DNA of 64,000 bases. Origin: Yuukianura sp. NJ FZ-2021. Taxonomy: Eukaryota. Shown here in pieces: positions 7,201 to 62,178 of this stretch. Made by a program: the position numbers and the translations under genes. The number at the start of each line of letters is the position of its first letter. Positions within the stretch are counted from its first letter, which is position 1. The notes beneath the pieces are model-generated. The model was given only the letters and a program-made list of their open reading frames with translations. It was not told the origin of the DNA and made no database searches. Location: NCBI GenBank assembly GCA_046563655.1, contig CM102285.1, positions 6,014,001-6,078,000 of the forward strand. Direction: 5' to 3'.

Positions 7201-10200
7201 TAGTTCACAGTGAATGTATTGGATGAATGTACTAATTATATAATTAAACCAACCGAACATCAAAGACACATCAACCGAACATTTGGTTATGAAAAGTCCG
7301 GTTCACATAGGTATTATGTCAGTCGACATTACTTTTGGCTTAAGAAAATCTCGTAGTCGATAACCATTTTAGGACGATATATGTGAGAACAATACGGGTA
7401 TCCGGTTATCTTTGTAAAGTGTAAATCAAAGTTTGACTAGTAACTCACTTTTTTCAAACGTAACTTCTTAAATATATTACCATTTTAAACATTGTGAGTA
7501 ATCCTGCTCCAACAATGTAAGAATGCTCTTGGGGTCGTCAGAGATTTTTGTCATGTACTATACTTTTTCGCTAAAAATGCGGAAGTAAAACGCCACAGCT
7601 TTTTGTAGTCAGGTTGCGGGGGTTTGTACTCAAACGAAGAGGTTAATCGTTTACAGATATATTTCCGTAATTGTGAGTGTGCCTACTTTTCAACACAATT
7701 TAGTTTAGACCTAGGCTAAGAAAAGAAACTATCTACGAGTTATAGCTCGAGTTAGTTCTAACTGGTCAGGCAGGGTGTATTAGGGATGACCTTTTAGTGA
7801 CACCAATTGCAAAAATAGCGATTACAGTATCTTTTGGTGGTAATAGTCATCTTGAACATGTCGTTCACATTCTACTTCTGTCGTAAACAGACTTAAAAAT
7901 TAAACTTTGGTTTATTTCCACCTTTAATTTCCAGATACGGGGGTTACCTGGGATAGTGATGCTGAGGTAGGGGTACTGAATGATGCTGAAACATGTGGTA
8001 TAGGGGCATCTTCGGTGTTTTCAAACAACGAGCCTGCTTTCACCACTATTTCGACCAACAGGCAATATCAGCACACACCTCAACCTTACCAAGATAATAG
8101 CAATGGATCTGGCATACTCCGTAACGAGTTAATGACTATAGTTGACGGTGTAGAACGGCCTAAGGTTGGAAAGAGTTCACAACCAAATTTGAGTCAACCT
8201 TCATTCGTTCAAACCTCCGTGATGTCTACATTCACGTATTCCAACCACACAAACACAACCTCGCTTCGCAATTGTAAAGGTAGCACTTCCACCAGTATGT
8301 ACGTACATCTTGTCTTTAATTTCCAGTCTACTCAGGGTGCTTGCTCTCTTTGCTTACAAGGTAGTAGATGGTTAGGTATGATTTCACACCTTCCCCTTAC
8401 AACATTTAGTACATATAAGGTTTACTAATTCTGTTTCTTTGGGTTATCGTTCTTAAATGACGCACTTTCGCGCTCCACTATGAAATCAATGTATTACTAA
8501 AGTTTCTCTGCTTGTTGCAGACTTTTCTGAAGGGATTGTATCGGACTTGCGTTCTGCGGCAGATACGAAATCAAACAAATCACCAGTCGTACCGCCTCAG
8601 AGGGTTTCCGGTTTAGGAAACGGGTCAGCACGGGGCGCACATGTCCCCGTCGCTCAATTTCTGCCCGCCGGTTTAATGGAACTCCCGGAACCACCAATGC
8701 TTGTTTCTGAAATTGGCCCAATACCACCCCCACCAATGTTCAGCACTCCGACGGGGACTTCACCACCCGATGAAAAGTCTGAAGCGACTCTGGCTTACCA
8801 GCGAGAAAGGGGACAAAGTTTAGCTGCTGCCATTGCTCTCGTCGTACAAAATGCTCGGAGCGTAGACATGTACCAAATGTCACAAGGTAAGACTGAGCCA
8901 ACGTGTTTACCATTTTTATTGTAGGTGGTCGTGTTAATAATACAGTGCAGTAGTTTGGAAAGGAGAGAAAGTACAATACAATGGGTATGGCCAAACTGAA
9001 GATTTTCCGTTATAGTTGCATTGTTGATCTACTTTTTTTTGGTAATGTCAAACTAGGCTGAGTTTGGTTGTCTTTTGTGTATTAGATTTTTGCCAACACG
9101 ACTGATACGTTAACTGTTTTTTTTTCTTTTTTGTCGTTTTTAATTTATTTTAGAAGAGCTGATGCAAGATGAACCGGATTCAGATGATGAAGAAGTACGA
9201 ATTGCCACTTCAAATTGTGTTCGGGGTTACTTGGAAGTGGATACTAATAAAGTGGAGGAAATCCCTGCAAAAGAACCCAGACCTCATGCTTATCCCGTTA
9301 AATCTGCGCTTAAAAAAATTCGGAACGACGAAGGTAGTGCAAGCTGTTCGTCACCAGTACTGGAAACAAAGCCAATAAGAAAGAAGACTGAGCAAATGCC
9401 TAAGTAAGTCGCGATACCGCTAAGTACGATCGAATTGTCATTATTACTTAATTCCACCTTTAACTACGGCCGGTAGGCAGACGCACAATGTGAAGCTTTT
9501 CTTCTAAATAAATTCAGCGTCTACACGTGAAAGTTTAACTTTTGTTTCGTTGCTTTTTTATAGTACAATTGCTTTCCCACTGTCCGCTTGCCGACAGCGG
9601 GAAGAGAATAAGGAGAACACTAGGCCTTCAATCGCTGTAGTTGATACTTCCAAGGAGGATGACTCGGATGGGGATGGAGATGGTCCTGTACTGTATAAGG
9701 ATGACGATGTCGCGGGGGAAGGCTCAGGTTAGATTACAATGAAGCATTATCAAGTTTTATAATATTAGTCACAAATCTTAAGTGTTAATTGGTATGGCTT
9801 TTTTTGTACGTAGTAAGTTGAAGGTGTTTCAGAATTACTAGAACAAATGCGGCGTTTTTCCGTGACTCTCTGATCTCACCTTGATAATGGTCGCTTATCC
9901 CTTCTCCATGATAAACCCATCCTTTTTATGCCATTTCTCTCTGCAGTCCTTCAATATTAAAATTAAATTGTACAGATAATTCTGCGTGATCCAAGGTCCA
10001 CCACGTCAACGTTTTGCAAAGGCAAATTCCAAACCAAGCATTTCCCAAAAAAAGCAGTCGCGGTTATTAGGAAAGGTGTATTTTTTTATATGTCTGAGGT
10101 CAAAGACCAATCGAGAGTTAATTGGCCTACGCAAATTTTTATTTTGTCAGTCGCCGTGTTCGCTACACTTCTTGGTAGGATAAATACTGAAATGGGGAGT

Positions 10201-11332
10201 GTACAACCTTACGAACTTTGACGCAAAAGAGGATAATTTTCAGGTGTATTGTATTGACGATCCTTTTTCTACTTCTCTTTGCGAGGAATTTAATTAAACG
10301 AATTCTCGTTTAAATCAACAGGACGAAAGTTAGCAAAAGTTGCACGAAACGACAGTCTCGCCCTCAAATTGGCGATGAGGCCGGATCGGCAAGAGCTAAT
10401 TGATCGAAATATCATTCGAGTGGTGACGGACCGAGAGGTTCAAGAAACAAAAGAAGCCATCGGTGCCAAACTTATCAGGTACATTGAATAAATCAACTGG
10501 AGAGCAAGAAAGTCACTGACACAAGTAAAGGACAAAGCAAATACTAATGCGGACTGTGTCTTATTAAGACAATTGGAAATACTATTTCGCTTTTCCCAAT
10601 GCGGACGTGGAACTGGAAATTGTTGTGCTGCAGTGTGCTAATTTTTCTTCTTTTTTTCTGTTTAGACGGCTTTCCATGCGACCTTCGCAGGAAGAACTCG
10701 AGGAGCGGAATATTCTCAAAAGTAAGAACTGGAACAACGTTATTCCGTTTATTTTTTTCATTAGAATGTGCACTGAACAAGCTGTTACAATTTGTTAATT
10801 ATTGAAATGAATTTCAATTTGCTATATTTCCACGTGGGAAGGAATCGGTACAAAATATGCATTTTTATTTTATATGATATTCGGCCGAGCTAATGCTAAA
10901 TTTTAGCGAAAAACTAATGATTGCTTATTTCTGATTGTGCGTAGAACAAACTCCGGCAGAAGAAAGAAAGCTAAAAGAAGAAAAAAAGAAGATGCTTCTC
11001 CGTAAACTAAGCTTTAGGCCTACAATAGAGGACTTAAAGGAGAAGAAGGTAATTTATTAGTTAAATTGAAGATTTTTTTATACTAAAAATTGTGCCAGGT
11101 TTACGTTTAACTTCAACATCGCGTTTTTTTTCTGTTTGAATAGATCATTCGCTTCAGCGACTATGTCGAAGTGACTCAAGCTCAAGAATACGACCGGCGT
11201 GCAGACAAACCATGGACTAGACTCACGCCGAAGGACAAAGCGACCATTCGTAAAGAGCTCAACGAATTTAAAAGTACTGAAATGGAGGTACATTCGGAGA
11301 GCCGTCACTTAATTCGCTTTCATAGGCCATAG
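4299..11332 (+). CDS. Phactr: Phosphatase and actin regulator (Phactr family), multi-exon
   Basis: Phase-compatible GT-AG exons 4299-4698 (least certain), 6667-6858, 7062-7175, 7935-8294, 8521-8886, 9154-9403, 9564-9727, 10322-10478, 10666-10721, 10945-11048, 11144-11332. They encode [17 protein letters not shown] repeats ([57 protein letters not shown]) and the PP1-binding tail [27 protein letters not shown]. Confidence 0.93.
4748..4868. mobile_element. Small MITE-like inverted repeat in a Phactr intron
   Basis: GAAGCGATACCTCAT versus ATGAGGTATCGCTTC, plus inner CCCGTGTA versus TACACGGG. Confidence 0.5.
5341..5654. mobile_element. Foldback MITE with ~130-bp arms
   Basis: GACCCACAGTATATCAAACTTTAGGAAAAGACTTGATCTAGTTTCTCGCTAAAAAA is mirrored near-perfectly at about 5545-5600. 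Confidence 0.7.
5843..6076. mobile_element. Tc1/mariner-type MITE
   Basis: TA|CAGTCAAGTTTCCCACTTAGGCCATTTGCC...GGCAAATGGCCTAAGTGGGAAACTTGACTG|TA; about 55-bp TIR and a TA TSD. Confidence 0.85.
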
Positions 11333-12961
11333 AAGCAACTTGCTAATTGAGATTTTTAATCCTACTTTAAACCGTAATGACTGTGAAGCGCCAAATGGGC
11401 TATTATATTTATATTTAACGCCCAGTCCCGTCCATACAAAGAGAAACGTAATTTTGTAGCACCACTTGACCTCCTCGCTGATCTATTTTCATGTTTTATT
11501 AGCTTTTCAGTGGAGAGTCAAGGGTAATTCGAATGGTACGGAAACAGTTAAAATTCAAGGGTATTGAAGAATGCTGGAAGCAACAACATGTTTTTAAATA
11601 TGGACCCGGCCCTAGACTGAAATTATAAGATTTTCGGTTTAGTTTTACTGATGATCAAAATAATAATAAGCTGCAATCGTAGTGCTTTAAAAGAGATATC
11701 CAGCAGACTTCCCTGCCTAAAATAAAACTTACTTGATAAATATTTTGCTCAAATTGTTCTCTTATAATCTTGAAATTCTAAATATTACATTTTAATAAAT
11801 ATTAAGTTTTGTTTTTCAACTGTTTGTAGACGTTCCCTGTCGTGGGGATGTTTCACTGCATTGAACTACAAACGGTATGCTTCGCACAAGAAAAGAGGAC
11901 AGTAACAAGTTGTTGACTGTCTTTTAATGCAAACTTCATAAATTATGTATAGATTTAACCTTCACACGTCTAAACATATAAAAACATAGGATAAGTTATC
12001 ATTGCATGTAAGGCTAAGGTTAGTGTGGATTTTCATTGCATTAGGCATTTCGAATTATTGGTAGTTAAAATTCTGTGATGCTCAAATTCCCGTTGTTTTG
12101 TTCTGTTTGTAATAAAGTTGATTTAACTCTTCTTATATGTAGCATATATGAAACTTTGTTTTAACATCGTACATGTAATCTTTTTCTATGTAACATATTA
12201 TGATATTGTTGTTTTAACATCGTACTATGTACAATCATTTGCAGCCCTGCAGTCGCTTTGCATTATTATTGTGAGCACAGAAAACTTATTGAATGACGAC
12301 TTCATATATTATTTGTTACTAACAACTAAAATGCAAAATTATGGACTTCTCAGTTTATTAAAACCGAATTTATAACCTACCTAATGTCCAGAGGTGTGTT
12401 GTGTTGAGTACATACAGCAAGGCTGATAAATTAAGGAATGCCTACACCGGAGGTTAATTTCCTGATCCAAATTTTATTTCAAATCGACGGACTGCTTAAC
12501 CAAAAAAATGTTCTTATAATGAAGAATTTTTAGATGTCTTTACCTCCCCGATCCGTAACCCTGTATTAGGTTATTTCCTTCTTTTCTTTAGTATAAATCT
12601 TTTTTGCATGCCCAAGTTCGTTTGCTATAGCGACCATTTATGCAAATGTCGTAAGAGGTTTTGTCATAACTCCGATGCTTCAAAAAAACGAAAACAACAA
12701 CTTTTGGACCAATTTTGTTTTCTTGGTAAAATATTAGTTTTTTTCTTATGCTTTTGCTATACAAAATGTATAGTTTTGATTTCGAAGTGCTAACTCAACG
12801 GAAGCGTGTAAGGGTAGCGCAAGATGTGAGACTCAAAGAATTTAAAATCAAGCAACAAGTAATTTTGACATAACCTTTTAAGCATAAATAAACAGAATTG
12901 CCAGTTAAACAACTTTGGCCGGCCCAAGCACGTTGTTGTCCATGTCTTAACTTAAACAAGA

Positions 12962-30279: not shown

Positions 30280-31654
30280 ATGAACCTCTTAGCAGTTTTT
30301 GTCATTTTTCTGGCAATTTGTTTAGAAAAAAATTTCTGTCTAGAACAAAACTCAAAATGTGCTACTTTAGTATCTGAAAATATTTTGGAGGAAATTAAAA
30401 GCTACCAAGAAGTTGTAAACAAGATCATAGAAGCAGCTACGGTGGGAGTATTTAAAGGTCAAACCTACTCCGACCTTGAGTATTTTGTGGATAAGTTTGG
30501 TTCCAGGTTGACTGGAAGTGAGGCATTGGAGAGGTCAATTGATTTTATGCTTGAAAAAATGTCAAAGATTGGACTTCAAAATGTCCATGCAGAGAATGTC
30601 ACTGCACCCAAGTGGGTCAGGTAATTTGAACATTTTGAAAACTAAAAATTGTTTAAAGTGAGTTACAAAAACATTTTAAAATTTGCTTCGCTCGTAAATA
30701 TTGTATATCGACCATTCTTTTACATTTTCAGGGGCGAGGAGTCACTGACCCTGTTAAGTCCGTATGCCAAAACAATTCCAGTTTTGGGGTTAGCATTTTC
30801 TGTACAGACTCCGCCGGAGGGAATGACAGCCGAAGTGGTTGTAGTAAACAGTTTTGCCGAACTTTGGAACTTGTCTGAAACAGTTGTGGCAGGGAAAATT
30901 GTCGTGTTCAATCAACCATTTGAAAATCCTGAGAAGGCTATAAAGTACAGACAGTATGGAGCAATTGAAGCGGCAAAGCTTGGCGCAGTCGCAGTAGTTG
31001 TTCGGTCATATGCAACCTTTTCTTTGGGAACTCCTCATACTGGACTCATGTTTTACAATCAAAGCATTTCCAAAATTCCCGCCGTTGAAGTTTCTATAGA
31101 AGATGCCCAGTTACTACGTCGTCTGTATAAAAAAGGCAAGTGTTGCAACTTTAAATTCCAAATTAATTCATTTGATGTTCCAACTTAGGTTTCTCCCAAA
31201 CAAAAATGAGCAACAACTTCTTTCTGTACAATTTTTTTTCAAAAGTCGTTACAAACTGAGAAATTTTTAAAATAAAACTTACTTTCGTATTTTCTTATTA
31301 AACGTGTTATTCTTTTCTAGGTGAGCACATACTGATGAAATTGAAAATAGCAAACACACAAATCGGAGAAATCGTCACCCGAAATTCAATTGGCGATATT
31401 CGCGGGAGTTCAAAACCAGACGAATTCGTGCTAATTTCTGGACACATGGATTCTTGGGACGTTGGACAAGGAGCGCTCGACGACGGTTATGGAGTGGTTT
31501 TGTCCGTAAAAGCACCAGAATTGCTTAAAGCTCTAAACCTCACAACGGAAAGAACTGTGCGGACTATACTATGGACAGCAGAAGAAATTGGGGAGGTTCC
31601 TTTTGGAGCTGCGCAGTATGTTGAAGCTCACCGTTCAGAACTGGAGCAGTATAC
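30280..31654 (+). pseudogene. CPQ: Carboxypeptidase Q (M28), 5' part, interrupted by the Polinton
   Basis: Signal-peptide-like N-terminus. Exons 30280-30620, 30732-31135 (GC donor) and 31321-31654. Motifs FGSRLTGS, PKWVRGEE, PHTG, SGHMDSWDVGQGALDDG, WTAEE. Confidence 0.88.
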
Positions 31655-31745
31655 AGTAGATAGCTGGGTGGGACAACGGGCTCATTTATTTTTAGAACAG
31701 CCACGGGGGTTAGTCGGCCGCAATATTGGGGAGGGAAAAAACTCA
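31655..31745 (+). repeat. Polinton left TIR (91 bp)
   Basis: AGTAGATAGCTGGGTGGGACAACGGG...GGGAAAAAACTCA, the exact reverse complement of 48511-48601. Confidence 0.97.
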
Positions 31746-31885
31746 AAAGTCCTTGTTTGAACTTGACAATTCCTAGAATTTTCCAACACCCGAGGCCTAA
31801 CAAATTCCAAGAACTTTTAAACGAAAGTTCTTGTTTGAACTTGTCAATTCCTTGAATTCTCCAACGCCCGGAGCAAAAAACAAAT
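31746..31885. repeat. Left subterminal imperfect direct repeat (2 x ~78 bp)
   Basis: AAAGT(C/T)CTTGTTTGAACTTG(A/T)CAATTCCT..GAATT.TCCAAC.CCCG occurs twice. Confidence 0.7.
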
Positions 31886-32010: not shown

Positions 32011-32784
32011 ATGTCATATCAATTCGATTTCGAGCAGCTCCCATACCTGTGCCAATTAGAAATATTTTCAAATTTGGACAGGTGTAGCGCTTTGCAACTG
32101 GCTAAAGTATTTCCAGATTCCTTAGCCATACTCAAGCCAATGCTTGACAAGATGGCTGCCAAAGTTGCAGAGTACACCCCATTTATGATAAGTGTTGGTG
32201 AGACACATATCGTCCATCTTGAATTCAACAAGAAACAAATGTTTAGAGTTGTGCTGGCGGGTCTAAAAAGTTTTCCGATTGGACGCGTCCTCACGGTGAA
32301 AAACTTTGTGACAGCGATTGCACCACTCAGGACGACAGTCGAAGTCACACTATTCAAAAATTGTTCCATCGAAGAGCTACTACCCCTCACCGAGAAATTC
32401 GACTTTGAGCGCGGGGTTTTTCGGGATGACACTGTAATCAACATCACCCCTCATCGCTACAGCTGCAGATACGAGATTTACGGCTGCAGATTCGAGACGT
32501 ATCAAGCTCTTGGAAGTATTGAATACGCCCAACATCGCGATGAGAAAAATCAGGAACTCCGACGGCTACTTCTGGAGTCATCCATTGAATTTGACAAACA
32601 GTTGGAAGAATCTCATCGAAATTACCAATTAAAAATGCGAGAAGAAAAATTGCAACGTTTGCGCGAAGAAAAGTTCCAACGATGGATTCGTCGTCGGAAG
32701 GAATTGAAACAATCTGCTGCTTTTTTTAAGATAAACATATATCGTCGTCGCTTAGCTCTTCAGCGTTTGAGCAAACGTAACTAA
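32011..32784 (+). CDS. Polinton accessory protein with an N-terminal F-box-like motif and a basic coiled-coil C-terminus
   Basis: First ATG at 32011. FEQLPYLCQLEIFSNLDRCSALQLAKV fits the F-box pattern LPxxxxxxIFSxLxxxxxxxLxxV. AATAAA follows the stop. Confidence 0.6.
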   Translation: MSYQFDFEQLPYLCQLEIFSNLDRCSALQLAKVFPDSLAILKPMLDKMAAKVAEYTPFMISVGETHIVHLEFNKKQMFRVVLAGLKSFPIGRVLTVKNFVTAIAPLRTTVEVTLFKNCSIEELLPLTEKFDFERGVFRDDTVINITPHRYSCRYEIYGCRFETYQALGSIEYAQHRDEKNQELRRLLLESSIEFDKQLEESHRNYQLKMREEKLQRLREEKFQRWIRRRKELKQSAAFFKINIYRRRLALQRLSKRN

Positions 32785-35249: not shown

Positions 35250-38200
35250 ATGGCGAAAAGATCTGCATCTCCCGCTCCGGGTCCATCATCTAAGCGCGGG
35301 TGCCATACATGCGAAATCTGCAACGAGAAGTTCCCATGCGCAAATCAGCTGCTCATCCACATCCACATTCAGCATGAAGAGGACGAGACGGTGACCGAAG
35401 CAACAAAACAACTTCCACAGATGCCCACAGATGGCCCTGCCGTTCTTTCCATGTACCGTGAAATGAAATGTCCACCATGCAATTTGACATTTCCGTGTCG
35501 CGATGAAATGCAAAAGCATTTTTACGAAGTTCATCCAGATTTTTTCTCTGATCCGGCGCAAGATGGAGGTCAACTTCCAACAAACTTGGAGCCAATAACC
35601 GTCGAACCACTTTTCACATCGCTAAACACAGTGACACAATACAGGGCGGTATTTGAAAACTTTCAATGTGAAAATGGTGTTGATGAACGCGACTTTCTAA
35701 AGTGTGTCTACGATTCATCTGCATCATGTATCAAACAAGACATAAAGAAATGGAAGAACGTCAAAGTATTCTTCTCGATGGTATGTAATTTCACAAAGTC
35801 TTATATTAACGGTACAGTCGAGACAAACCGCGGCTGTTTCACGTCTTTTCGTCACCTCGTTTACACTGATGAAAGTATTCCAAAGGTGTGGAATATTATG
35901 GGTCATCAGATGTCAAACCAAATTGAAAATTTTACGAATGAGGGAAGTGGGTGGGACTTGGCCTATATTTCCGAGTTTAAATTCGTCACCGCCAAATACC
36001 AATTTACTAAAATTGGAACTTTTATTGAAACACCATTTCCGCTTTCCGAACACAACAAAACATTGTTAAACATTGACAATAGTGAAGTGACACCGTCAAA
36101 CTCTCACAATCAGTGCTTCCTTTGGGCTGTTCTCGCTCATGACAGACTTGTCGGAGCGACTCTTGGAAGAAATCGCTCCAGAGTGGACAAAAAGGTCAAA
36201 ACTTACGCCCCCCATGTATCAAAGGTAAACACTCAAGGTTTACACTGGCCAATGTCCCTACAGCAGCTGCCACGTTTTGAGCAACTCAATCCAAACATCT
36301 CGCTAACAGTTCTCGGCTATGACATGGATGCTCCAGCCCCTCCACCGCGAAAAAACGAGACTACTCGTCAAAGGTCAAAGGCTGCTCAAAAGGAAGACCT
36401 CGACTTGTTCAAATGTATGCAGGAAAATATTTCAATCCTCTACAACTCAAAAGAATCCAAACAAATTCACGTGGACTTGATGTGTCTGATGCAAGGCAAC
36501 AACGCTCACTTTCTTCTAATCCGAAATCTTGAAGCGCTAATGAAGCCTCCGAATGTTCACCACACGTTGCACATTTGTCGCAATTGTCTTTCAAATTTTA
36601 AACTTCCAAGAACTCTGAAAGACCATATTCCCTACTGTGCTGCGCTTGGGCTCCAAAAAGTCAAATACCCAGAGGGGGATAAGAGCAACCTGAAATTTGA
36701 CAAGTGGGCACGTACTCAGCCAATTCCATTCCGCTTTTACGCAGACTTTGAAGCGTTCCTCAACAAGTTCGACTCTACATGCGAACACGAAGTCTGCCGC
36801 CAACGGCACAAAGCACAAATGACGGAATCAAAAGAAAAAGAAGTCAAGGAAAACACCCGTCGTGTTAATATCCACAAGCCGTGTGGATGGTCATGGGTCT
36901 GCGTCGACTTTAACGGTAACCGTCGCTATGGAGAGTGTTATCACATGACAGACGATAATGAAGACGTAGCTGCTCGCTTTGTTGAGAGCATTCTCAGATA
37001 CTCCAAGATTCTTCAAAAAGAAGTTGACGAATATGAGAAGATTGCTCCGAGAATGCTGGATCAAAACATGACCCGTGAACAGCGTGAAGCTTCAGAACGT
37101 GAAACAAAATGCTGTTTTTGTGAAAAAGCATTTTGTTTCGGTGAAACAAGAGTGCGACACCATACACACCTTCCACCTTTCAATTACATCGGTATGGCAC
37201 ATCAATTCTGCAATCTTGAAGCCCAGATCAAAAAGGAATTTCCAGTATTCCTGCACAACTTATCCTCCTACGACGTGCACTTCCTGGTACAATCAATGGG
37301 GAAGCTCACAGAAGACAAAATCATCAAAAATGTTGAAGTCATTCCAAAAAGCAGTGAGAAATTCTTGTGCATGACCGTTACTCCAGAGTATTCCGGAGAA
37401 GCAGAAGAAGAAGAAGACGACGAAGACATTGTCGGGAATACTAGAAGACGTGAAAAGTACAAACTACGATTTACAGACAGTCTCGGCTTCACACTCAAAT
37501 CCCTAGACGGTCTGGTTAAGGTAATGCGTCAAGACCCAAATGCCACCTTTCCAGTCACCCGACAAGAATTTCAGCAGGAAGTCGACAGTGGCGCCAACAT
37601 CGATCTTCTCTTCCAGAAAGGCGCCTACCCATACTCACTTATGAAATCCTGTGAAGACTTTGAAATGACAAGTTTGCCTCCAAAAGAAGCGTTCTTCAAT
37701 GACATGACCGAGGCGCCAATTCAAGATACAGTTTACGAGCATGCCCAGAAGGTTTGGGAAAGCTTCAAAATCAAAAACATGGGAGAGTGGCATGACCTTT
37801 ACGTGCGTCTGGACGTTTCACTTGGAGGGTGATGGAGGGTGTTCGAAAACTTATGATGGACAGCTACGGTTTGGAACTGGGCCACTACTATTCTCTTCCA
37901 ATGATGGCCATTGATTGTGCTCTAAAAAAGTCTGGAGTTGTTCTGCAATTAATCAGCGACCCTACGATGCATTGTTTCTTAGAGCATTCGATCAGAGGTA
38001 AGAAATTATATAGAAATTATATTAAAAACAATTGAAATTGTTGAAAACTAATCACTTCTTTTTAATTTAGGTGGCTTCGTGTGTGTGGGATCTCGACGTT
38101 CTGCAACTGCAAACCATCCTTACATGGGTGATGAGTATAATCCGGACGAACCCATCTATTATATCATTTACATTGACGCGAATAATTTATACGTTAGTAA

Positions 38201-39692
38201 TTTATATGTTCATAATTTATTTCATTTAATGAAATTATGTCAGAATTTAATTTTATTATATTTTTAGGGAAAAGCAATGAGTTTAGCGCTTCCCGTCGGA
38301 GATTTTCGTTGGCTGACTCAGGCTCAAATGGATAAAATTTTGGGAGATATTGACAGATTCATTGCAGAAACGGACAGGGTGAAGGATACTGGATATTTAC
38401 TAGAGGTTGACCTGGAAATTGACCCAGAACTCCATGATCAGCTTAATGATTATCCTCCAGCTCCTACTGCAAGAACTGTTACACTGGATGAGCTCTCTGC
38501 ACACCAGCAGCAACTCATGGAAGACCTCAACTCTGGGCCCGGTTTGTTCAAAGTGAAAAAACTTGTCGCAGATTTGAACAACAAAAAAAGCTACATCCTT
38601 CATCATGCCATTCTCAAGGAATACTTGGCAATGGGAGTTAAAGTCTCCAAAATTCACAGAGGTATCTCCTTCACACAGCACGCTTGGATGAAGGACTTTA
38701 TTGACTACAATACGGAAATGAGAAAAAAGGCCACCAGTGACTTTGCCAAGGACTTTTGGAAGTTGCTGAACAACTCCGCATTCGGGAAGACAATCGAACA
38801 AGTCCGTAATCGTCAGAATGTTCGCATTGTCACAACGGTTGAGAAGGCGCTTTACTACAATAAGAAACCTACAGTCCAGAACGTGATTCCAATAAATGAA
38901 ACGACTTGTGTCTTTATGATGAAGAAACTTCAAGTGACACTCAACAAACCAATTTTCACTGGAGTCACAGTCCTTGACCTTGCCAAGAGCATCATGTATC
39001 GTCATCATAGAGTGGGCATGCAGGCAAAGTATGGAGACAAGTGTCGCTTGATATATACCGATACTGGTAAGTATAAACTACTTTTAGTTTTTGTCAAAAT
39101 TTTTTTCACAAAGTGTAAAAACAATTTTTTCCTTGCAGATTCATTCATTTATCACATTCAAACCGAGGATGTGTACCAGGACATGTTCGAAAACAAGGAA
39201 TTGTACGATATGAGCGAGTATCCAGCCGATCATCCACAATTCGGAAAGTTTCACGACCCTGTCAACAAAAAAGTTCTGGGAAAATTCAAGGATGAGGCTG
39301 CTGGTGCCGTTATCACGCATGTGTACTGTCCAAGACCGAAGATGTATACCATTCGAAGTCTCAAAATCCAGACCGCCAAGTGTGACCTCTCCGGAAGAAC
39401 TATTTATCAGAAGAAGTCGGACGGTTCATGGCTGTTAAAGGATGAGTATACCAAGAAGGCAAAGGGAATTACAAAAACAGCGGTTAACGGTCAGGTCAAG
39501 TATGAAGACTATGAGCGAGTCCTCAAGGAGAATGTGCAGACTATGGTTACCATGCGTGGCTTCAGAAGCGTCGAACACCGAATTTTCACAGAAGTAACCA
39601 TAAAGAAGGCTCTCAACGGATTGGACACGAAGAGATATGCTGTAGATAGTGTTAATACTTTAGCTTTTGGTCATAAAGATATCCCAAAATAA
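35250..39692 (+). CDS. Protein-primed family B DNA polymerase (pPolB) with 3 introns and one frameshift
   Basis: N-terminal C2H2 fingers, an OTU-like segment (NQCFLWAVLA...HFLLI), exonuclease motifs (YADFE, HNLSSYD, FTDS), an EndoVII/HNH-like insert (CCFC..HHTH..AHQFCN) and KGAYPY. After splicing introns 37998-38070, 38193-38267 and 39067-39138 it reads IRGG, DANNLYG, KLLNNSAFGK, YTDTDS, PKMY. Frameshift at about 37824-37832. Confidence 0.95.
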
Positions 39693-39812
39693 TACTTTTA
39701 ATTAAATCTTTACACTATTATATTTTTATATTTTGTGTTATAAGATTATTAATTGTATATTAAACCAGTAAATTTCTGAAATTGAGTTTAGTCGTCATTA
39801 GTTCTTTGAACC

Positions 39813-40722
39813 ATGCAGGTCTCCTCTCGCTGTGGTAAATTATTTTCGCGTTCTGACGTTGCAAAGCGTCACGAGAAGACATGTTTCAAATGTTTCTCCG
39901 TCTCTCCCACCACCGCCGCCGCCACATCCTGGGTGGTTCCAGCCATCGGTGGGGCAGGCCCCACCGTTGGAGGGAGTTCCACCACCGCCGCCGCCCCCGC
40001 CGCCGCCCCCACCGCCGCCGCTCCCGCCTCCGCCCTCCCCAGCCACCGCCGCCACTCTACTTCAGCATCCACGGTCGGGAGACGATATTGACTTGCAACT
40101 TGTGGCACCGTTTACAATGTGTGTGAGCGGAATGACAAACACAGGCAAAAGCACGCTTGTCAAGGAAATTTTGATTCGAAGAAACGAAGTTGTAAAAACT
40201 TCAACTGGAATTGCAAATGTAACTTATTGTTACACAGAGTGGCAGTCTGGGCTATTTGGAGAACTAAAAACAAAAATTCCTGGCATTCAGTTTGTTCATG
40301 GACTGCCAGAGAAATGGCATGATGGTACTGACAGACCGTCAATTATGGTTCTGGATGATTTAATGCATGAAGCAGGGAAGAAGGGAGAGGTTGGAGCAGC
40401 CTTCACGAGAACTTCTCATCACAGAAATGTGTCTCTGATTATTTTGGTTCAAAACTTTTTTCATAAGAATTTGAGAGAAATTACACTCAACTGTCAGTAC
40501 TTGGTTCTCATGAAGAATCCACGAGACTCTGCTTTTGTTTCATGCCTTGGACGACAAATGAATGGAGGAAAAAAGAACGCGACAATGGACTTGGCATACA
40601 AGGAGAGCATGGCAAAGCCCTACGGCTATCTTTTAATTGATCTAACTCAATCACAAAAGGACGACTATCGAATTAGAAGTAGCATTTTTCCCGAAAATTG
40701 TTATGTTTATGTCAATGAATAA
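39813..40722 (+). CDS. A32/FtsK-like genome-packaging ATPase (5' structure uncertain)
   Basis: PFTMCVSGMTNTGKST (Walker A), MVLDDLM (Walker B), FTRTSHHRNVS, QN, KNPRD, PYGYLLID. The ATG at 39813 is in a different frame from the ATPase core. Confidence 0.9.
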
Positions 40723-40991: not shown

Positions 40992-41993
40992 CTACTGATC
41001 CAATTTCAACAGTTGCTTGTCGTAAAAACTACCCAAAATAGGAGTACCCTCAAGGTCTTCTAACTTGTAAACGTATGGATTAGTTGCTATAACTCTCACA
41101 ATTCGATAAACTTCGTCAATATAGTTTGTCGAGTAGCCCTTTTCAAACGTTTTTTTAATTCTGGCGACAAGGACGAGGTCATTTACGTTGAGTTTAGGCT
41201 TTTTATAGTCCACTGCAACTTCCGGGTACAAGTTGCGCCGTACTTCATCCTCATTCCTTTCAGTAACTTTGCACGGCGCCATTTTAATACTTCGATGATA
41301 TGCATGATTGTACAGATTTTCAAAATCTGTCAATTTATCAACAAACTTTTTGGTTCTGTTATGTGTCAAGTAGCGTTGAATTCTCATGAATAGTGTGCGG
41401 ATGAAACGTTCCACAATCACACATTTTAATGGAGAATGTGTCCAAAATAGTTTGATGTCTTCATGCTTCAGATACGTCTTCATGTGTTGATTAAGAAATT
41501 CAGAACCTTTGTCAACTTGTACTCTCTTTGGCTTTCCACCACAGCGCTCTAAAATTTTTTTAAATGCTGAAAGAACTACTGGTCCTGTCTTGTTTGGAGT
41601 TGCCTCGATCCAGCCTTGTTTTGAAAAAGCGTCAATAACCACCAACAAATACCTAGAAAACAAATTCGAGTTTTTAAAAACCCTAACCTAACCTAACCCA
41701 ACCTAACCTAAGCTAACCTAACCTTACCTTTTTTTGTTATTGGCTCCCGACATGTTTTGAATGTCCTTCAAGTCTGCACAATACTGTTCGTGCATGCCTC
41801 CAACATAAACTCTCCGACGTGGAAACCGATATCGAACTGGACGGTGGAGTTGATAACTTGGAATTTGCTTCAAAATTTTCTTGACGCGGTGTGGAGACGC
41901 CTTAGTGTTTGAATCTTTTTGAAACCCAAATGCTCCAGAAAAACTTCCAGGTAGTAAAGTGTTTAACCATCGTTGTTTCAGATCGGTGTCCAT
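40992..41993 (-). CDS. Retroviral-like (RVE, DDE) integrase, 2 exons
   Basis: Exons 41993-41728 and 41652-40992. PGSFSG N-terminal motif; D (YCADL), D (QVDKGSEF), E (IVERFIRTL); HRSIKMAP, FEKGY, GSFY. No chromodomain is visible. Confidence 0.95.
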
Positions 41994-43075: not shown

Positions 43076-43600
43076 TTACAATTTTATACAACATTGATTT
43101 ATTATTTTGTGTTTAAATTTACAATTTGAATTCAATAAAGGATTTTTTAATATTACAAATTTGCGTACTTTTTTATCATTTAATTGTTTATTGGGAGAAA
43201 AGTGACAGTAAGTAGATAGAATACAACAGCCATGCATCATTTTATACAAAAAGTAGATTGCATATTGCCCACAAACATTAGAGTCAAGGGCTTGCAATGG
43301 TCTAGTATTTTCCAAAATTTTACAAGAAAACTTATTTACAAAATTTCTAAAGTCAATAGGGTAAAAATCCAGTCCAAGTCCATAAGAGCAAAAGAAGATG
43401 ATTGGTCCAGTTCTGCCTCCAATGTAGATTGCCACCCAATGTTCTCCAGGATGATCAGAAGGCTTGTTATTTACAACCAAGTAGGCTGGAAAGTGAGCAA
43501 TTGTTAGCTTTCCAAGTAGGTCGCATGGTATTACATTGAAATATGCTCTTGTTCCGCGAGTCATATTTGACAAAAACTTGTAAATTTGTGTGGTGTCCAT
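43076..43600 (-). CDS. Adenain-like (C5) maturation cysteine protease
   Basis: VNNKPSDHPGEHWVAIY, FFCSYG, LQALDSNVCGQYAIYFL; overlaps the MCP stop codon by 1 nt. Confidence 0.92.
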   Translation of the reverse strand: MDTTQIYKFLSNMTRGTRAYFNVIPCDLLGKLTIAHFPAYLVVNNKPSDHPGEHWVAIYIGGRTGPIIFFCSYGLGLDFYPIDFRNFVNKFSCKILENTRPLQALDSNVCGQYAIYFLYKMMHGCCILSTYCHFSPNKQLNDKKVRKFVILKNPLLNSNCKFKHKIINQCCIKL

Positions 43601-44901
43601 TAGTGTGAATAGTCTTTGAAAAACACGTTCTTTCCTTCGTCAATATACAGAGTAGATTGAAAGTCAGCGTGACAGACAACGTTCCAAGCCTCAGTGGTAG
43701 GTTTTGCAAACTGAACGACGATTTTTATACTTCCGTGTCTTGGGGGACAGTAGCCTTGATTCATGTTTCTGAGGTTAAAAATGAAAAACGCCTTTCCATT
43801 TGTAAACTCGGAAAGGCTAATAGCAGGTCCTTCATTGCTAGCACACAGTCCAAGACCGCTAAACATTCCATAGTATGCTTCAGAAACTCGAACATCGCCA
43901 TCACTGTTGTACTGGTAAACCTGATGATAAAGTTGTTCTCCGTTTGCTGTGACGGAAATTTGTCTCAATTCTGGAGGATTAAAGTCAAATGGATTTGTAG
44001 TCAGAGTTCCGTTCATTTTTTCACTTTGAACTAGACAAAGTATAATTCTGTCAGGAAGTAGTCCATTAATCAAGTTTTCATTCACATTTGATACAGTGCC
44101 AAGGGGCAAGCTGTACGTTTTCATCTCGATCCGTCTCATTGGGTAGCATGCCGGCTGACCATTAGCCCACATTTTCAAATGACAATTCAAAATATTCGGT
44201 AACAGAGTATGTTTTTTAACTAAAAGTCTGGCTTCAGTAATATTGATTTTGTAGCGATTTGTATTGTCTGCCTGAGAGTGGAGTGCAAATTCTTCGGTGG
44301 AGCGGTTGAAAGTAACTCTAATGTCGATTCCAGGAAGCAAGTAGCGAGTTTGGGCAAAGATGTCAGCAAACGGTCGTCCAATCATGTCCAAGCCCTTGGC
44401 TGCTAATTCTTGTCTCTTTTTGTGGGAAGTGTCAGTGTCACTCAAATTCTCTTCCTCTCTCAAGTAAAGAGCAGTAACTGCTTGTGTATCCTTGTAGTCT
44501 CCTCCATATGCAAGCACAGTCTCAATATAGGCCCGATACGGATAGAGTGACATGGTTGGAGTAATTTGTGTTTCATTTAGAAACACAGAGCACTGCTGAA
44601 ACAAGGAATGTAAAAAGTTGTTGACTGGAGCGATTCGCATGGTGGCTCTCTCGTCCATTTTATCACTATTTGCTTTTGAAATCTTGCAGCCAACATATAG
44701 CAAAGTTTCACTTAAATCAACATAGTGAACGTCATTTCCTTTGATTTGAAAAGAAATTGGACCTCCATTTTCATTTAATGCTGACAATGGATGGTACTCA
44801 AACATTCCACTACTTTGAAGACTAACGTCCATTTCTGGTTCACTAAATATATCGGTTTCACTTCTAACTACTTCTGGGTGAGGAGCGTGTTTGGAACTCA
44901 T
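43600..44901 (-). CDS. Major capsid protein (double jelly-roll, Polinton PY)
   Basis: 433 aa with SETDIF, YHPL, GPISF, YVDLSETLL, PVNNFLHSLF, YPYRAYIETVL, LLPGID, G.LPDRI and NPFDF, all typical of Polinton MCPs. Confidence 0.92.
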   Translation of the reverse strand: MSSKHAPHPEVVRSETDIFSEPEMDVSLQSSGMFEYHPLSALNENGGPISFQIKGNDVHYVDLSETLLYVGCKISKANSDKMDERATMRIAPVNNFLHSLFQQCSVFLNETQITPTMSLYPYRAYIETVLAYGGDYKDTQAVTALYLREEENLSDTDTSHKKRQELAAKGLDMIGRPFADIFAQTRYLLPGIDIRVTFNRSTEEFALHSQADNTNRYKINITEARLLVKKHTLLPNILNCHLKMWANGQPACYPMRRIEMKTYSLPLGTVSNVNENLINGLLPDRIILCLVQSEKMNGTLTTNPFDFNPPELRQISVTANGEQLYHQVYQYNSDGDVRVSEAYYGMFSGLGLCASNEGPAISLSEFTNGKAFFIFNLRNMNQGYCPPRHGSIKIVVQFAKPTTEAWNVVCHADFQSTLYIDEGKNVFFKDYSH

Positions 44902-46950: not shown

Positions 46951-47133
46951 TAATTCTAGGAAAAAGAAACGTTTTTTCGACTTTGTCTAAAAATAGAAAG
47001 GACTAAAAGTTCAACGACTCTAAAACGACATTCTCAAAGTAAAATAACCCAAACAACAAAAATTCGAAAATGTACAAGTTTGAATTTATTCAAATACAAA
47101 AACTGTTACTACTACTAAAGTAGATTATACAAT

Positions 47134-47985
47134 TTAACAAAAAATGTCAAAAGCTGAAATTTGCTTAACACCATAAAAAATAATGTTGAGAACTGTATCA
47201 TCAGAGTATGACGATTGACGATACATGTTAAGATGGACCAGTCTAAAGTGCTCGTTAAAGTCATGCTTTGGAGTACGTCTTTGGTTGTTAATTTGAATTT
47301 GTTGATGTTTGGTAACGTCCAGAACATGCTTCGAGTAGGCTGGATTTAAAATAAAAGACTCTGGCGATAAATAGCAGGAAAATCGGTGAAACACGTTTGG
47401 TTTTTTGTATGGATGAACTTTCTTGTTCGTCTTAAAACCGGCAGCCTTGCCAATTGTTTCTTTAATTCTGTTGATACGAGTGCTGAGAATTTTATCGCGT
47501 TGCTTTCTCATGTATTCACGTTTTGTCTCATGAATGAGCTCATCCAGATACTTTTCTGTATATGAGGTCGGAAAGCAGCCACACTTTAGAAGTGATTCCA
47601 CCAGAAGAGGAATGTCCATGATTTCGATGGGAAGTGGACGACCGCTACGTATGAGAAACACTCGATTCACATTGCCTGTGATGCAGTGGATAGGAAGAAG
47701 CGGCCGCTCCAGCTTTTCTTTGAGTGTTTGAAACTCTGCGGGTGACTGCTGACGAAATAACTTTAGGAATCCATTCTTGCGGTTAGTTGCCATGATTGTT
47801 TCAAAGTGTGGTAAATCCTTCATCATTTCCCCTGCGGCTATGTATGCTTTCACTAGCTTTTCCACCACGGTTGGCAGTTCCTCTGCTGTCAGAAGAATCG
47901 AATGTCCAGAAATCTTGACTGCGATGACATCTTCCATGTCAATAAACGGTTCCGAAACCTCCATGTATGACCTGAATCCACGCAT
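47134..47985 (-). CDS. Hypothetical accessory protein with two copies of the repeat domain
   Basis: 283-aa ORF starting at ATG, with TCAGT upstream and AATAAA downstream. Confidence 0.65.
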   Translation of the reverse strand: MRGFRSYMEVSEPFIDMEDVIAVKISGHSILLTAEELPTVVEKLVKAYIAAGEMMKDLPHFETIMATNRKNGFLKLFRQQSPAEFQTLKEKLERPLLPIHCITGNVNRVFLIRSGRPLPIEIMDIPLLVESLLKCGCFPTSYTEKYLDELIHETKREYMRKQRDKILSTRINRIKETIGKAAGFKTNKKVHPYKKPNVFHRFSCYLSPESFILNPAYSKHVLDVTKHQQIQINNQRRTPKHDFNEHFRLVHLNMYRQSSYSDDTVLNIIFYGVKQISAFDIFC

Positions 47986-48198
47986 GCTTATAGTTTGAGA
48001 CTGGTTTCTGAACTGATGATTGCTAGTCTCAAAACTCGCTGTTTAAGTACTACTTGGACAACGTTTGAAATGCTATTTTGAAATTTTTTCAAAAACGTTT
48101 TTTCTAAAGAAATGTTATTTTGAGAACTTTTCAAGAAAAAACGTTTTTCTTGAGAAAAGATATTTTTCCAAGAACTCAATCCTTAACTAAAAATAAAT

Positions 48199-48341
48199 AA
48201 AAAAAATAATAACATTGACCCCAGTCTTGTATCTAAGTACTTGTAACTTCTTACCCACAAGCGTTGACCCGTGTGGTATTCGAACCAGCGGCCGTAGAGA
48301 AGTAGTTACAAGCACTTAGACACTAGGCTAGAGTCAATGTT
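48199..48341 (-). ncRNA. Putative Pol III-transcribed, tRNA-like long-hairpin RNA (VA RNA-like)
   Basis: On the minus strand: A box TAGCCTAGTGT (48330-48320), B box GGTTCGAATAC (48286-48276), a 61-position stem 48341/48211 (44 WC, 11 G-U, 6 mismatches) with a 9-nt loop, and a T8 run (48206-48199) starting 4 nt after the stem. Confidence 0.7.
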
Positions 48342-48371
48342 CGAATTTTCTATACAAAAATTTCACTACTT

Positions 48372-48505
48372 GTTTTTTGTTGTCGACTTTTTTGTTATCG
48401 ACATTTTTTGTCGACATTTTTGTTTTCGATCTTTTTTTTTTTTTGTCGACATTTTTGTTGTTGACATTTTTGTTGTCGACTTTTTTGTTGACGACATTTT
48501 TTTGT
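48372..48505. repeat. Right subterminal ~15-bp tandem repeats
   Basis: About 8 units of TTTTTGTTGTCGAC(A). Confidence 0.75.
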
Positions 48506-48510
48506 CATTG

Positions 48511-48601
48511 TGAGTTTTTTCCCTCCCCAATATTGCGGCCGACTAACCCCCGTGGCTGTTCTAAAAATAAATGAGCCCGTTGTCCCACCCAGCTATCTAC
48601 T
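48511..48601 (-). repeat. Polinton right TIR (91 bp)
   Basis: Exact reverse complement of 31655-31745. Confidence 0.97.
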
Positions 48602-48606
48602 TATAC

Positions 48607-48964
48607 AATGTTTCTTGAAGCTGATAGCGGAGTGCTTGGTGCGCATGGCTTAATCTTCAACGGAAGCGAAGCAGCCGGTTGCATTGTTTCGGCCATTTTG
48701 AAACTTTTGGAGCCGAACCTCATAACACAGGCGAAGCTTTATCCGGAATTTCCTCGACTCAAGACGGATATTGTTCCGTTGATGGGTGCCGTACCTGTTC
48801 CGGGAGCTTTAATTGCAACGCAATTTGACAAGTACTTTTGGTACCATCATTCTCAGGCGGATACTATTGAGGCCATTGACCCCGATGACCTTGACATTTG
48901 CCTTGCCTTGTGGACTGCCCTCTCGTATGTGCTTGGAAACTTGAGTATCATGCTTCCGCGGTAA
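48607..48964 (+). pseudogene. CPQ: Carboxypeptidase Q, 3' remainder of the split exon
   Basis: Removing the element and one TSD copy restores the in-frame ELEQYT|MFLEADSG...KYFWYHHSQADT...LPR*. Confidence 0.9.
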
Positions 48965-49404
48965 ACGTTTCACTAAAACGTTTTTGCGTTTTTGGTAGAA
49001 ACTATACAATACTTTATTAAGAATTTGCCAATGACTGCGCCAGTAACCTTCGGATCCAATTACAACTGTAATCCTAATCACTGCGGAAAACTTCCAGAAA
49101 ATCAACATTAGAATAATTTGGTTTTGTTTACCTAAAGTGTTAGTCTTTGTAAACAAAGCTAACGCGGCAAGCTGGAATAAAATCAGCAAGTCCATGATTG
49201 CCAGATAAGAGTTAGCAGTTTTATCATGTCTTACTTATTGCTCTCCGCCTCAAAAATATAGACTAAAGATGAATGTCATTTTTAGTAAAAGCAATACGCC
49301 GCCACGCATAATTTTTTCGTATAAAATTATGACAATGTGATCCGTATACTAAAACTATTTCAAGGAAAAGAAAATTGCACAATTGAATAAAACCTACTGA
49401 AACA

Positions 49405-51834: not shown

Positions 51835-62178
<10,344 letters not shown>

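What the first reader, a model, noticed from the sequence alone, without database searches (positions are those of the whole stretch)
48199..48341. A Polinton carries a VA-RNA-like, tRNA-like Pol III hairpin RNA gene
Seen in the sequence: in the non-coding arm about 170 bp inside the right TIR, the minus strand reads AACATTGACTC-TAGCCTAGTGT-CTAAG...GGTTCGAATAC...GGTCAATGTT-ATTA-T8. This gives an A box at +12 (10/11 to TRGCNNARYGG), a B box at tRNA-like spacing (10/11 to GGTTCGANNCC) and an oligo-T terminator. The whole 131 nt folds into a 61-position stem with 44 Watson-Crick pairs, 11 G-U pairs, 6 mismatches and a 9-nt loop. Of the 13 transition differences between the arms, 11 are G-U wobbles on the minus strand and only 2 on the plus strand. 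That bias suggests selection on an RNA of the strand carrying the promoter, rather than a decaying DNA palindrome. The 74 nt at 48337-48264 can also close a degenerate cloverleaf (acceptor TTGACTC/GGGTCAA), hinting at a tRNA origin extended by a complementary tail. Established knowledge: adenoviruses, which are relatives of Polintons, make type-2 Pol III VA RNAs that antagonise PKR and saturate Dicer/Exportin-5. Inference: this is a Polinton-encoded small RNA acting as an RNAi decoy or a miRNA/siRNA precursor. I am not aware of one being described in Polintons, but I could not check the literature.
Basis: partly seen in the sequence, partly recalled or inferred. Interest (0 to 1): 0.92.

Follow-up and report, generated by a model that had tools for sequence, protein, structure and literature searches.

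The report
Pol III-type hairpin RNA gene in Polinton arm
A virus-like Polinton/Maverick transposon sitting in a springtail-like genome carries, just inside one end, a 131-base hairpin laid out like a small-RNA gene read by RNA polymerase III; whether it is actually transcribed could not be tested.

Summary
Window 48211-48341(-) folds into a 55-pair hairpin (44 WC, 11 G-U, 9-nt loop; -66 kcal/mol, z -9.5). An A box lies at +12, a B box 44 nt later, and T8 starts 4 nt after the stem. That combination occurs once in the window and in 5 of 400 shuffled strands. G-U pairs favour the promoter strand 11:2.

The carrier is a 16.9-kb Polinton/Maverick-like element with capsid protein, rve integrase, 94-nt TIRs and a TATAC duplication, inserted in a carboxypeptidase Q exon of a springtail-like host. 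Its large replication protein is not recognisable as pPolB.

Contigs from four DNA runs show the arm is multi-copy. Diverged copies keep the hairpin joined to both flanks, no copy lacks it, and one contig matches the hairpin alone.

No homologue was found in 81 related metagenome loci. A very distant element (L041) has an unrelated 85-nt hairpin with the same layout beside its end.

It belongs to no Rfam family (VA, tRNA, vault: no hit; RUF6 sub-threshold). The tRNA-cloverleaf idea fails. No RNA data exist, so expression and function are untested.

Best reading: an element-borne Pol III hairpin RNA, analogous to VA RNA but not homologous. Main rival: a captured SINE/MITE-like unit.

The parts
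48211..48341 (-). 131-nt hairpin body of the predicted RNA (55 pairs, 9-nt loop)
   Evidence: -65.5 to -66.2 kcal/mol, z -9.54; 44 WC + 11 G-U
48320..48330 (-). A-box-like motif TAGCCTAGTGT, starts at nt 12 of the hairpin
48276..48286 (-). B-box-like motif GGTTCGAATAC near the apex, 44 nt after the A-box start
   Evidence: 1 mismatch to GGTTCGANNCC. The mismatch is at the position that is C61 in tRNAs (position naming recalled).
48199..48206 (-). T8 run, candidate Pol III terminator, 4 nt after the stem
48374..48506 (.). about 9 tandem copies of a 15-nt unit (TTTTTGTTGTCGACA on + strand) between TIR and hairpin
48508..48601 (.). right terminal inverted repeat
   Evidence: 94 nt, 99% complementary to 31655-31748
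31655..31748 (.). left terminal inverted repeat; the left arm has no hairpin counterpart
31650..31654 (.). target-site duplication TATAC (second copy at 48602-48606)
   Evidence: read
47134..47985 (-). ORF283, first gene downstream of the hairpin, no known family; this arm's gene content varies between related elements
43600..44901 (-). major capsid protein of Polinton/Maverick type
   Evidence: 318 homologues; source names 'F54H12.2-like' and 'Major capsid protein'
40992..41687 (-). rve-type integrase core
   Evidence: PF00665, E 4.1e-10, 40.3 bits vs cutoff 32.6; PHROG transposases
39802..40722 (+). candidate A32/FtsK-like packaging ATPase (weak)
   Evidence: PF04665 E 0.0047, 16.9 bits, below cutoff 22.8
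35250..39692 (+). large protein in two ORFs (860 aa + 471 aa), collinear with a 1314-aa ORF in L005; family unknown
   Evidence: no Pfam/PDB hit and no family-B polymerase motifs; 6 unnamed homologues

Best explanation
The hairpin is a small-RNA gene with an internal type-2 RNA polymerase III promoter, and it belongs to the right arm of this Polinton/Maverick-like element family.

Inferred mechanism:
- TFIIIC would bind the A and B boxes.
- Pol III would start within a few nt of the first stem base (about 48341).
- It would stop in the T8 run (48206-48199).
- The product would be a 135-140-nt RNA that is almost entirely one imperfect 55-bp stem with a short U-rich 3' tail.

In a hexapod host such an abundant, long, imperfect duplex would most plausibly engage the dsRNA/RNAi machinery. 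It could act as a competitor or decoy for Dicer-type enzymes, or as a precursor of small RNAs. That would make it a functional analogue, not a homologue, of adenovirus VA RNA or the Pol III-made hairpins of bovine leukemia virus.

Shown: the structure, the motif layout, the strand bias, and its membership of the element's arm in several diverged copies.
Inferred: transcription, polymerase, RNA ends and function.
For: 1. Stability is far beyond chance and is stronger on the promoter strand: -66.2 (z -9.5) against -47.3 (z -6.0).
2. The A box, B box and T8 have tRNA-like spacing (44 nt). They occur once in 128 kb of both strands and in 5 of 400 shuffled strands. They are registered so that the predicted start and stop bracket the stem exactly.
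3. Of 13 transition-type arm differences, 11 are G-U on the strand with the promoter and 2 on the other. The strand chosen by wobble pairs and the strand chosen by the motifs agree.
4. No T4 run interrupts the 131 nt on the minus strand.
5. The hairpin is integral to the arm. In contigs of 4 DNA runs (2 studies), no joint skips it. Diverged contigs bridge both of its borders (X3 record 21: 48220-48408 with 30 differences; X1 record 6; X4 record 29). The dominant sequence in all four runs equals the window's, apart from the one difference shown in the hairpin (48254; 86 rows were not shown).
6. One 1,023-nt contig matches only 48220-48343 (18 differences). The hairpin is therefore retained where the flanks are no longer recognisable.
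7. A very distant element (L041, MCP 27% identical) has beside its end an unrelated 85-nt hairpin (z -6.1) with A box, perfect B box and terminal T-run, also pointing inward.
Against: - There is no transcript evidence of any kind.
- Both boxes carry a mismatch. The B-box mismatch is at the position that is an invariant C in tRNAs (recalled), which could weaken TFIIIC binding.
- No homologue was found in 81 related loci (454 kb searched with the window) by BLAST or by a covariance model. These include 20 loci with at least 3 kb upstream of the capsid gene and L005, a complete element whose matching arm has no hairpin.
- Copies in the host are mostly near-identical, so no covariation test was possible. 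The variant rows of the diverged copies were not shown.
- The one majority variant seen (48254) replaces a G-U pair with U-U.
- The plus strand also has a T4 five nt after the stem.
- Other palindromes without A/B boxes occur in related elements (L014, L021), so palindromic insertions in these arms are not rare.
- The strand-bias p of about 0.02 is modest.
Confidence: 0.5

Rival explanations
1. A tRNA-derived SINE-like or MITE-like foldback repeat of the host was captured in the arm of an ancestor of this element family. The A and B boxes are relics of its origin. It may or may not be transcribed, and it does nothing for the element.
For: - One 1,023-nt contig matches the hairpin alone, with unlike sequence on both sides (X3 record 22).
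- Summed contig depth over the hairpin bins is 20-50 times the single-copy flank and higher than over the neighbouring ORF283.
- The genes of this arm vary between related elements, so it is an accretion zone.
- tRNA-derived-looking A/B-box units occur near other Polinton fragments (L010, L041).
- Palindromes occur in L014 and L021.
- The hairpin is absent from all distant relatives.
Against: - No target-site duplication flanks the hairpin (read).
- There is no A-rich or simple-repeat SINE tail.
- There is no depth spike confined to the hairpin. The adjacent upstream bin is as high or higher in X1 and X3. Depth there is inflated by the 15-nt repeats, and summed contig depth is not a copy number.
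- No empty-site contig was seen, and diverged arm copies carry the hairpin in place.
- The 11:2 wobble bias and the exact bracketing of the stem by predicted start and T8 are not expected of a decaying relic.
Confidence: 0.3
2. A DNA-level element. The palindrome (cruciform) and/or its TFIIIC-binding B box would act in the DNA, for example as a replication or packaging signal near the terminus, or as a tDNA-like chromatin boundary shielding the element from silencing. No functional RNA would be involved.
For: - It sits subterminally, 166 nt inside the TIR, next to an array of 15-nt TGTCGACA-containing repeats that look like protein-binding sites.
- L014 has a 219-nt palindrome in the same arm.
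- Both strands fold well beyond chance.
Against: - It is present at one end only; the left arm lacks it.
- A DNA palindrome should not accumulate wobble-compatible changes on one strand (11:2).
- A T8 immediately after the stem, on the promoter strand, is unexplained by a DNA role.
Confidence: 0.12
3. Chance coincidence of a decaying inverted duplication with promoter-like words.
For: Each box has one mismatch. B-box-like words at <=1 mismatch occur about 3 times per shuffled strand.
Against: The full A+B+T combination arises in 5 of 400 shuffled 64-kb strands. Here it also falls exactly on the only strong hairpin of the element, on the wobble-favoured strand.
Confidence: 0.03

Closest known systems
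Adenovirus VA RNA I/II (Rfam RF00102)
   Same: Both are carried by a member of the wider adenovirus/Polinton capsid lineage. Both have internal A and B boxes with a T-run terminator, are highly base-paired RNAs of about 140-160 nt with paired 5' and 3' ends, and have a hairpin resembling a miRNA precursor. VA RNAs are described as stable hairpins processed by Dicer in the abstracts of PMC4140831 and PMC9145648 (listing and abstracts only).
   Different: There is no sequence or structure match to the Rfam model at E<=10. The fold is a single plain stem rather than terminal stem, central domain and apical stem (VA's three-domain layout is recalled). PKR, the classical VA target, is not known in hexapods (recalled). 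The position is subterminal.
Pol III-transcribed retroviral hairpins (bovine leukemia virus miRNA cluster)
   Same: In both, a mobile or viral genome encodes hairpins transcribed directly by Pol III from internal type-2 promoters. This is stated in the abstract of PMC12498455 (listing and abstract only).
   Different: BLV hairpins are pre-miRNA sized (about 55-65 nt, recalled) and clustered. This is one 131-nt stem, long enough to yield several small RNAs. No small-RNA data exist for it.
Plasmodium RUF6 ncRNA (Rfam RF01581)
   Same: RUF6 gave one of the two significant Rfam E-values: 37.7 bits, E 3e-5, across the full model length. It is a Pol III ncRNA. The search terms 'RNA polymerase III' and 'B-box' occur in PMC11208047 and PMC9670795 (listing only).
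   Different: The score is far below the gathering score of 70. The host and context are unrelated, and the match rests on the shared long-stem plus B-box plus U-tail layout.
tRNA-derived SINEs / foldback MITEs
   Same: It has A and B boxes at tRNA spacing, is multi-copy in the host, and is palindromic.
   Different: It has no cloverleaf, no SINE tail and no target-site duplication. Its copies travel with the Polinton arm.

Membership tests
Adenovirus VA RNA (RF00102) | Internal type-2 Pol III promoter (A and B boxes) and T-run terminator | tested here: met
   Motif level only: (1 mismatch each, spacing 44, T8)
Adenovirus VA RNA (RF00102) | Match to the family covariance model | tested here: not met
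   No VA hit at E<=10; none at gathering
Adenovirus VA RNA (RF00102) | Terminal stem / central domain / apical stem architecture (feature recalled) | tested here: not met
   Single unbranched stem
Adenovirus VA RNA (RF00102) | Binds PKR / saturates Exportin-5 and Dicer | not testable with these tools
   Needs biochemistry; no RNA run listed
tRNA | Cloverleaf recognised by tRNA finders | tested here: not met
   ARAGORN 0 genes; no Rfam tRNA hit; 74-nt segment z -0.04
tRNA-derived SINE | Dispersed solo copies with target-site duplications and an A-rich/simple-repeat tail | tested here: inconclusive
   One hairpin-only contig; no duplication or tail at the window copy; host genome not available
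MITE / foldback element | Terminal inverted repeats flanked by a target-site duplication; copy number far above surroundings | tested here: inconclusive
   Palindromic, but no duplication and no hairpin-confined depth spike
RUF6 (RF01581) | Score at or above the gathering threshold (70 bits) | tested here: not met
   37.7 and 34.3 bits
Polinton/Maverick (the carrier) | Double-jelly-roll-type major capsid protein of the Polinton family | tested here: met
   318 homologues, names 'F54H12.2-like', 'Major capsid protein'. The fold itself was not modelled.
Polinton/Maverick (the carrier) | rve-family integrase | tested here: met
   PF00665 above cutoff
Polinton/Maverick (the carrier) | Long TIRs and short target-site duplication; 15-20 kb | tested here: met
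   (94-nt TIRs, 16.9 kb); TATAC on both sides. 5 bp here, whereas 6 bp is usual (recalled).
Polinton/Maverick (the carrier) | Protein-primed family-B DNA polymerase | tested here: inconclusive
   The large protein at the expected place has no Pfam or PDB hit and none of the polymerase motifs I searched for; 6 unnamed homologues
Polinton/Maverick (the carrier) | A32/FtsK-type packaging ATPase | tested here: inconclusive
   PF04665 E 0.0047, below cutoff

The most novel reading that the evidence does not exclude
Polinton/Maverick elements of hexapods encode their own Pol III-transcribed hairpin RNAs at one terminus. These RNAs would be transcribed inward and acquired independently in distant lineages (the window's 131-nt RNA, L041's 85-nt RNA, and perhaps L014's 219-nt hairpin driven differently). 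They would serve to blunt or steer the host's RNAi response. That would be a functional counterpart of adenovirus VA RNAs in the transposon-like relatives of adenoviruses.
Probability: 0.25. Interest if true: 0.85.

Novelty: new variant of a known kind. Interest (0 to 1): 0.6.

Why it matters
Polintons/Mavericks are regarded as integrated relatives of adenoviruses and virophages. In the listings of four searches of the held library I found no paper describing a Pol III or VA-like RNA gene in them (listings only).

A Pol III hairpin RNA in such an element would be the first sign that these elements use small structured RNAs, as adenoviruses, herpesviruses and some retroviruses do. It would also offer a concrete handle on how an endogenous DNA virus coexists with RNAi-based defence in arthropods.

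The claim is directly testable with one strand-specific small/total-RNA library of the host. If the unit instead proves to be a captured SINE/MITE, the finding is ordinary.

Tried and rejected
- **Whole-genome search:** no genome is held for this window.
- **Earlier notes of the scan:** nothing by place, sequence or words.
- **RNA evidence:** no RNA holder is listed among the 5 runs found. This says nothing on expression.
- **BLAST:** the hairpin and both arms against 81 loci gave nothing.
- **Covariance model R1:** it was built from the single sequence entered twice. It found only the window's own site on both strands, in 454,549 bases.
- **Exact 23-nt pattern scans:** IMG/VR and GTDB genomes gave 0 matches.
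- **First palindrome scan:** it had a logic error and printed nothing. It was corrected.
- **Energy-based sliding scan of termini:** it timed out. The lighter rerun was too coarse to register hairpins. Follow-up folds of four arm windows gave z from -2.6 to +0.1, so nothing comparable.
- **L041's missing 304 nt:** the attempt to see whether its unit lies inside a longer TIR failed because the record is not held.
- **tRNA-origin cloverleaf:** rejected.
- **Naming the large protein pPolB:** rejected for lack of evidence.
- **L058 A/B-box hit:** it lies inside the capsid coding match and is taken as chance.
- **Papers:** supplements were not consulted.

Full report
**What is there**

The minus strand of window 48199-48341 folds into one long imperfect stem. 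The MFE is -66.2 kcal/mol, z -9.54, and none of 200 dinucleotide shuffles does as well. The plus strand reaches only -47.3 (z -5.96).

The 131-nt core (48211-48341) has 44 Watson-Crick and 11 G-U pairs around a 9-nt loop. In the ungapped fold-back of the 61 stem positions, the minus strand has 11 G-U pairs and the plus strand 2. Under symmetric mutation, an 11:2 split of transition-type differences has a two-sided binomial p of 0.022 (my arithmetic).

On the same strand lie three motifs:
- an A-box-like word, TAGCCTAGTGT, starting at nt 12;
- a B-box-like word, GGTTCGAATAC, starting 44 nt later, at the apex;
- T8, four nt after the stem.

With at most one mismatch per box, 30-60 nt spacing and T>=5 within 120 nt, this is the only such combination on either strand of the window. 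Only 5 of 400 Markov-shuffled strands contain any. The predicted Pol III start and stop bracket the stem exactly.

One detail is not confirmed. The 74-nt 'degenerate cloverleaf' is no more stable than shuffles (z -0.04). ARAGORN finds no tRNA in the window, and Rfam's tRNA model is silent even when only 161 nt are searched.

**The carrier**

TIRs of 94 nt (99% complementary) at 31655-31748 and 48508-48601 bound a 16.9-kb element. It is flanked on both sides by TATAC.
- The 433-aa ORF at 43600-44901(-) has 318 homologues. Sources name some of them 'F54H12.2-like' and 'Major capsid protein'.
- 40992-41687(-) carries an rve integrase core above Pfam's cutoff.
- A weak A32-type ATPase signal lies in 39802-40722(+), below the cutoff.
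- The order ORF241-ORF153-capsid-ORF174 is shared with metagenome relatives.
- A large protein, in two ORFs here (860 and 471 aa) and 1314 aa in L005, sits where a polymerase would be expected. It has no Pfam or PDB match, none of the family-B polymerase motifs I searched for, and only six unnamed homologues. I do not call it pPolB.

'Polinton/Maverick-like' is justified by capsid, integrase, TIRs and size. The polymerase criterion is open.

The element interrupts a carboxypeptidase Q exon in frame. The left flank aligns to residues 250-359 and the right flank to 363-478 of a springtail protein, at 64% identity. The best named matches of the flank are all Collembola, so the host is probably a springtail-like hexapod.

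**Is the hairpin part of the element or a later insertion?**

The hairpin is single-copy in the window, and no genome is held. Five DNA runs hold the stretch: four from one sample of organism A and one from organism B in another study. No RNA run is listed.

I laid contigs of four of these runs on 47000-49200 at >=80% likeness:
- Summed depth in X1 is about 237 in the single-copy flank, 4,669-12,846 over the hairpin bins, and 187-2,985 over ORF283. Such sums are not copy numbers, and the 15-nt repeats inflate the bins next to the hairpin. They still show that the arm is repeated.
- None of the 14 joints listed skips the hairpin, so no empty site was seen.
- Diverged contigs bridge both borders (X3 record 21, 48220-48408, 30 differences; X1 record 6; X2 record 13; X4 record 29).
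- The dominant sequence in all four runs equals the window's, except at the one difference shown in the hairpin (48254). There most copies carry another base, which turns a G-U pair into U-U with little energy change.
- One 1,023-nt contig matches only 48220-48343, with 18 differences and unlike sequence on both sides.
- The variant rows of the diverged contigs were among 86 rows not shown, so no covariation test was possible.

The hairpin has therefore been in this arm throughout the arm's recognisable history. In at least one place it survives without recognisable flanks. That fits either selection on the RNA or mobility of the unit.

**Relatives**

I fetched 80 metagenome loci and one IMG/VR locus encoding capsid relatives at 25-71% identity in the best matched segment. 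Twenty of these 81 loci have at least 3 kb upstream of the capsid gene. Both TIRs are visible in 4 of the 11 loci examined for inverted repeats (L005, L041, L061, L081).

BLAST with the hairpin and arms, a covariance model of the hairpin, and ARAGORN found no homologue and no tRNA. L005, a complete element at 43% capsid identity, has no comparable hairpin in the matching arm. The genes between the TIR and ORF241 differ between elements.

Two observations temper this:
- L014 (44% capsid identity) has a 219-nt hairpin in the same arm and on the same strand as the capsid gene. It has 7 versus 2 G-U pairs in favour of that strand and a T4 at its 3' end, but no A/B boxes and no sequence similarity.
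- L041 (27% identity) has, 94-178 nt beyond the visible part of its right TIR, an 85-nt hairpin (-34.7 kcal/mol, z -6.1). It carries an A box (1 mismatch), a perfect B box 43 nt later and a terminal T-run, and it points inward like the window's. It shares GGTTCGAA..TACCACACG with the window's RNA. Whether it lies inside a longer TIR or in host DNA could not be settled.

**Known families**

Nothing in the window reaches any Rfam gathering score. In permissive mode the hairpin gives only RUF6-5 (37.7 and 34.3 bits against 70), MIR2630 (35.3 against 144) and weak miRNA-precursor hits. There is no VA, tRNA, vault or Y RNA. It is a member of none of these families.

By layout it works like adenovirus VA RNA and like the Pol III-made hairpins of bovine leukemia virus (abstracts seen). 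The listings of searches for Polinton with 'RNA polymerase III', 'VA RNA' or 'non-coding RNA'+'B box', and for Maverick/Polinton with 'small RNA'+'hairpin', showed only general TE reviews or nothing (listings only). A further search for Maverick with 'tRNA-like' and 'terminal inverted repeat' also listed only general TE papers.

**Verdict**

- **Best reading (0.5):** an element-borne Pol III transcription unit making a hairpin RNA of about 135-140 nt. A role in engaging the host's RNAi machinery is inferred by analogy and is less certain.
- **Main rival (0.3):** a captured tRNA-derived SINE/MITE-like unit.
- **Other rivals:** a DNA-level palindrome or TFIIIC site (0.12), and chance (0.03).

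A single strand-specific RNA library of the host would decide between them.

Noticed in passing
window 31302-31654 and 48607-48964: The element sits inside a carboxypeptidase Q (M28 peptidase) coding exon. The two flanks align in frame to residues 250-359 and 363-478 of a springtail homologue at 64% identity. A contig joins the TIR to the flank at flank depth in run X1. The insertion therefore disrupts this gene copy in the sampled material.
   Followed up: yes
window 12962-~29700: About 80 tandem copies of a 209-bp satellite, 95-98% alike, directly upstream of the region holding the element. Each unit contains GGTTCCACGCC, a B-box-like word with one mismatch.
   Followed up: no
window 57929-59047: A 271-bp tandem repeat, 4.1 copies, 96% alike. 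Each unit has a B-box-like TGTTCGATTCC. No tRNA or Rfam hit.
   Followed up: no
window 48374-48506: About 9 copies of a 15-nt unit containing the palindrome TGTCGACA, between the TIR and the hairpin. These are possible protein-binding sites. Copies in the runs differ here by deletions of 57-134 nt.
   Followed up: partly
L041:13182-13266 (-): An 85-nt hairpin with A box, perfect B box and T-run beside the end of a very distant Polinton-like element. Whether it is inside the TIR is unresolved.
   Followed up: partly
L014:146-364 (+): A 219-nt near-perfect hairpin (-124.7 kcal/mol; 7 vs 2 G-U pairs favouring the capsid strand) 84 nt upstream of a 739-aa ORF. It lies in the arm corresponding to the window's hairpin arm. 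It has no A/B boxes and a T4 at its 3' end.
   Followed up: partly
L021:8137-8349 and 11458-11687: Three further long palindromes (92, 114 and 230 nt) in a scaffold with a capsid relative (34% identity). The two short ones are strand-symmetric and look MITE-like.
   Followed up: no
window 35250-39692 (+); L005:13579-17520 (-): The element's largest protein (about 1,300 aa in intact relatives; two ORFs in the window) belongs to no recognisable family and has only six unnamed homologues. It may be an undescribed replication protein of this Polinton-like clade.
   Followed up: partly
window 32011-32784 (+): The first ORF of the left arm has a sub-threshold F-box match (E 0.0015, 18.8 bits vs cutoff 20.5), which would be an unusual cargo for such an element.
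   Followed up: no
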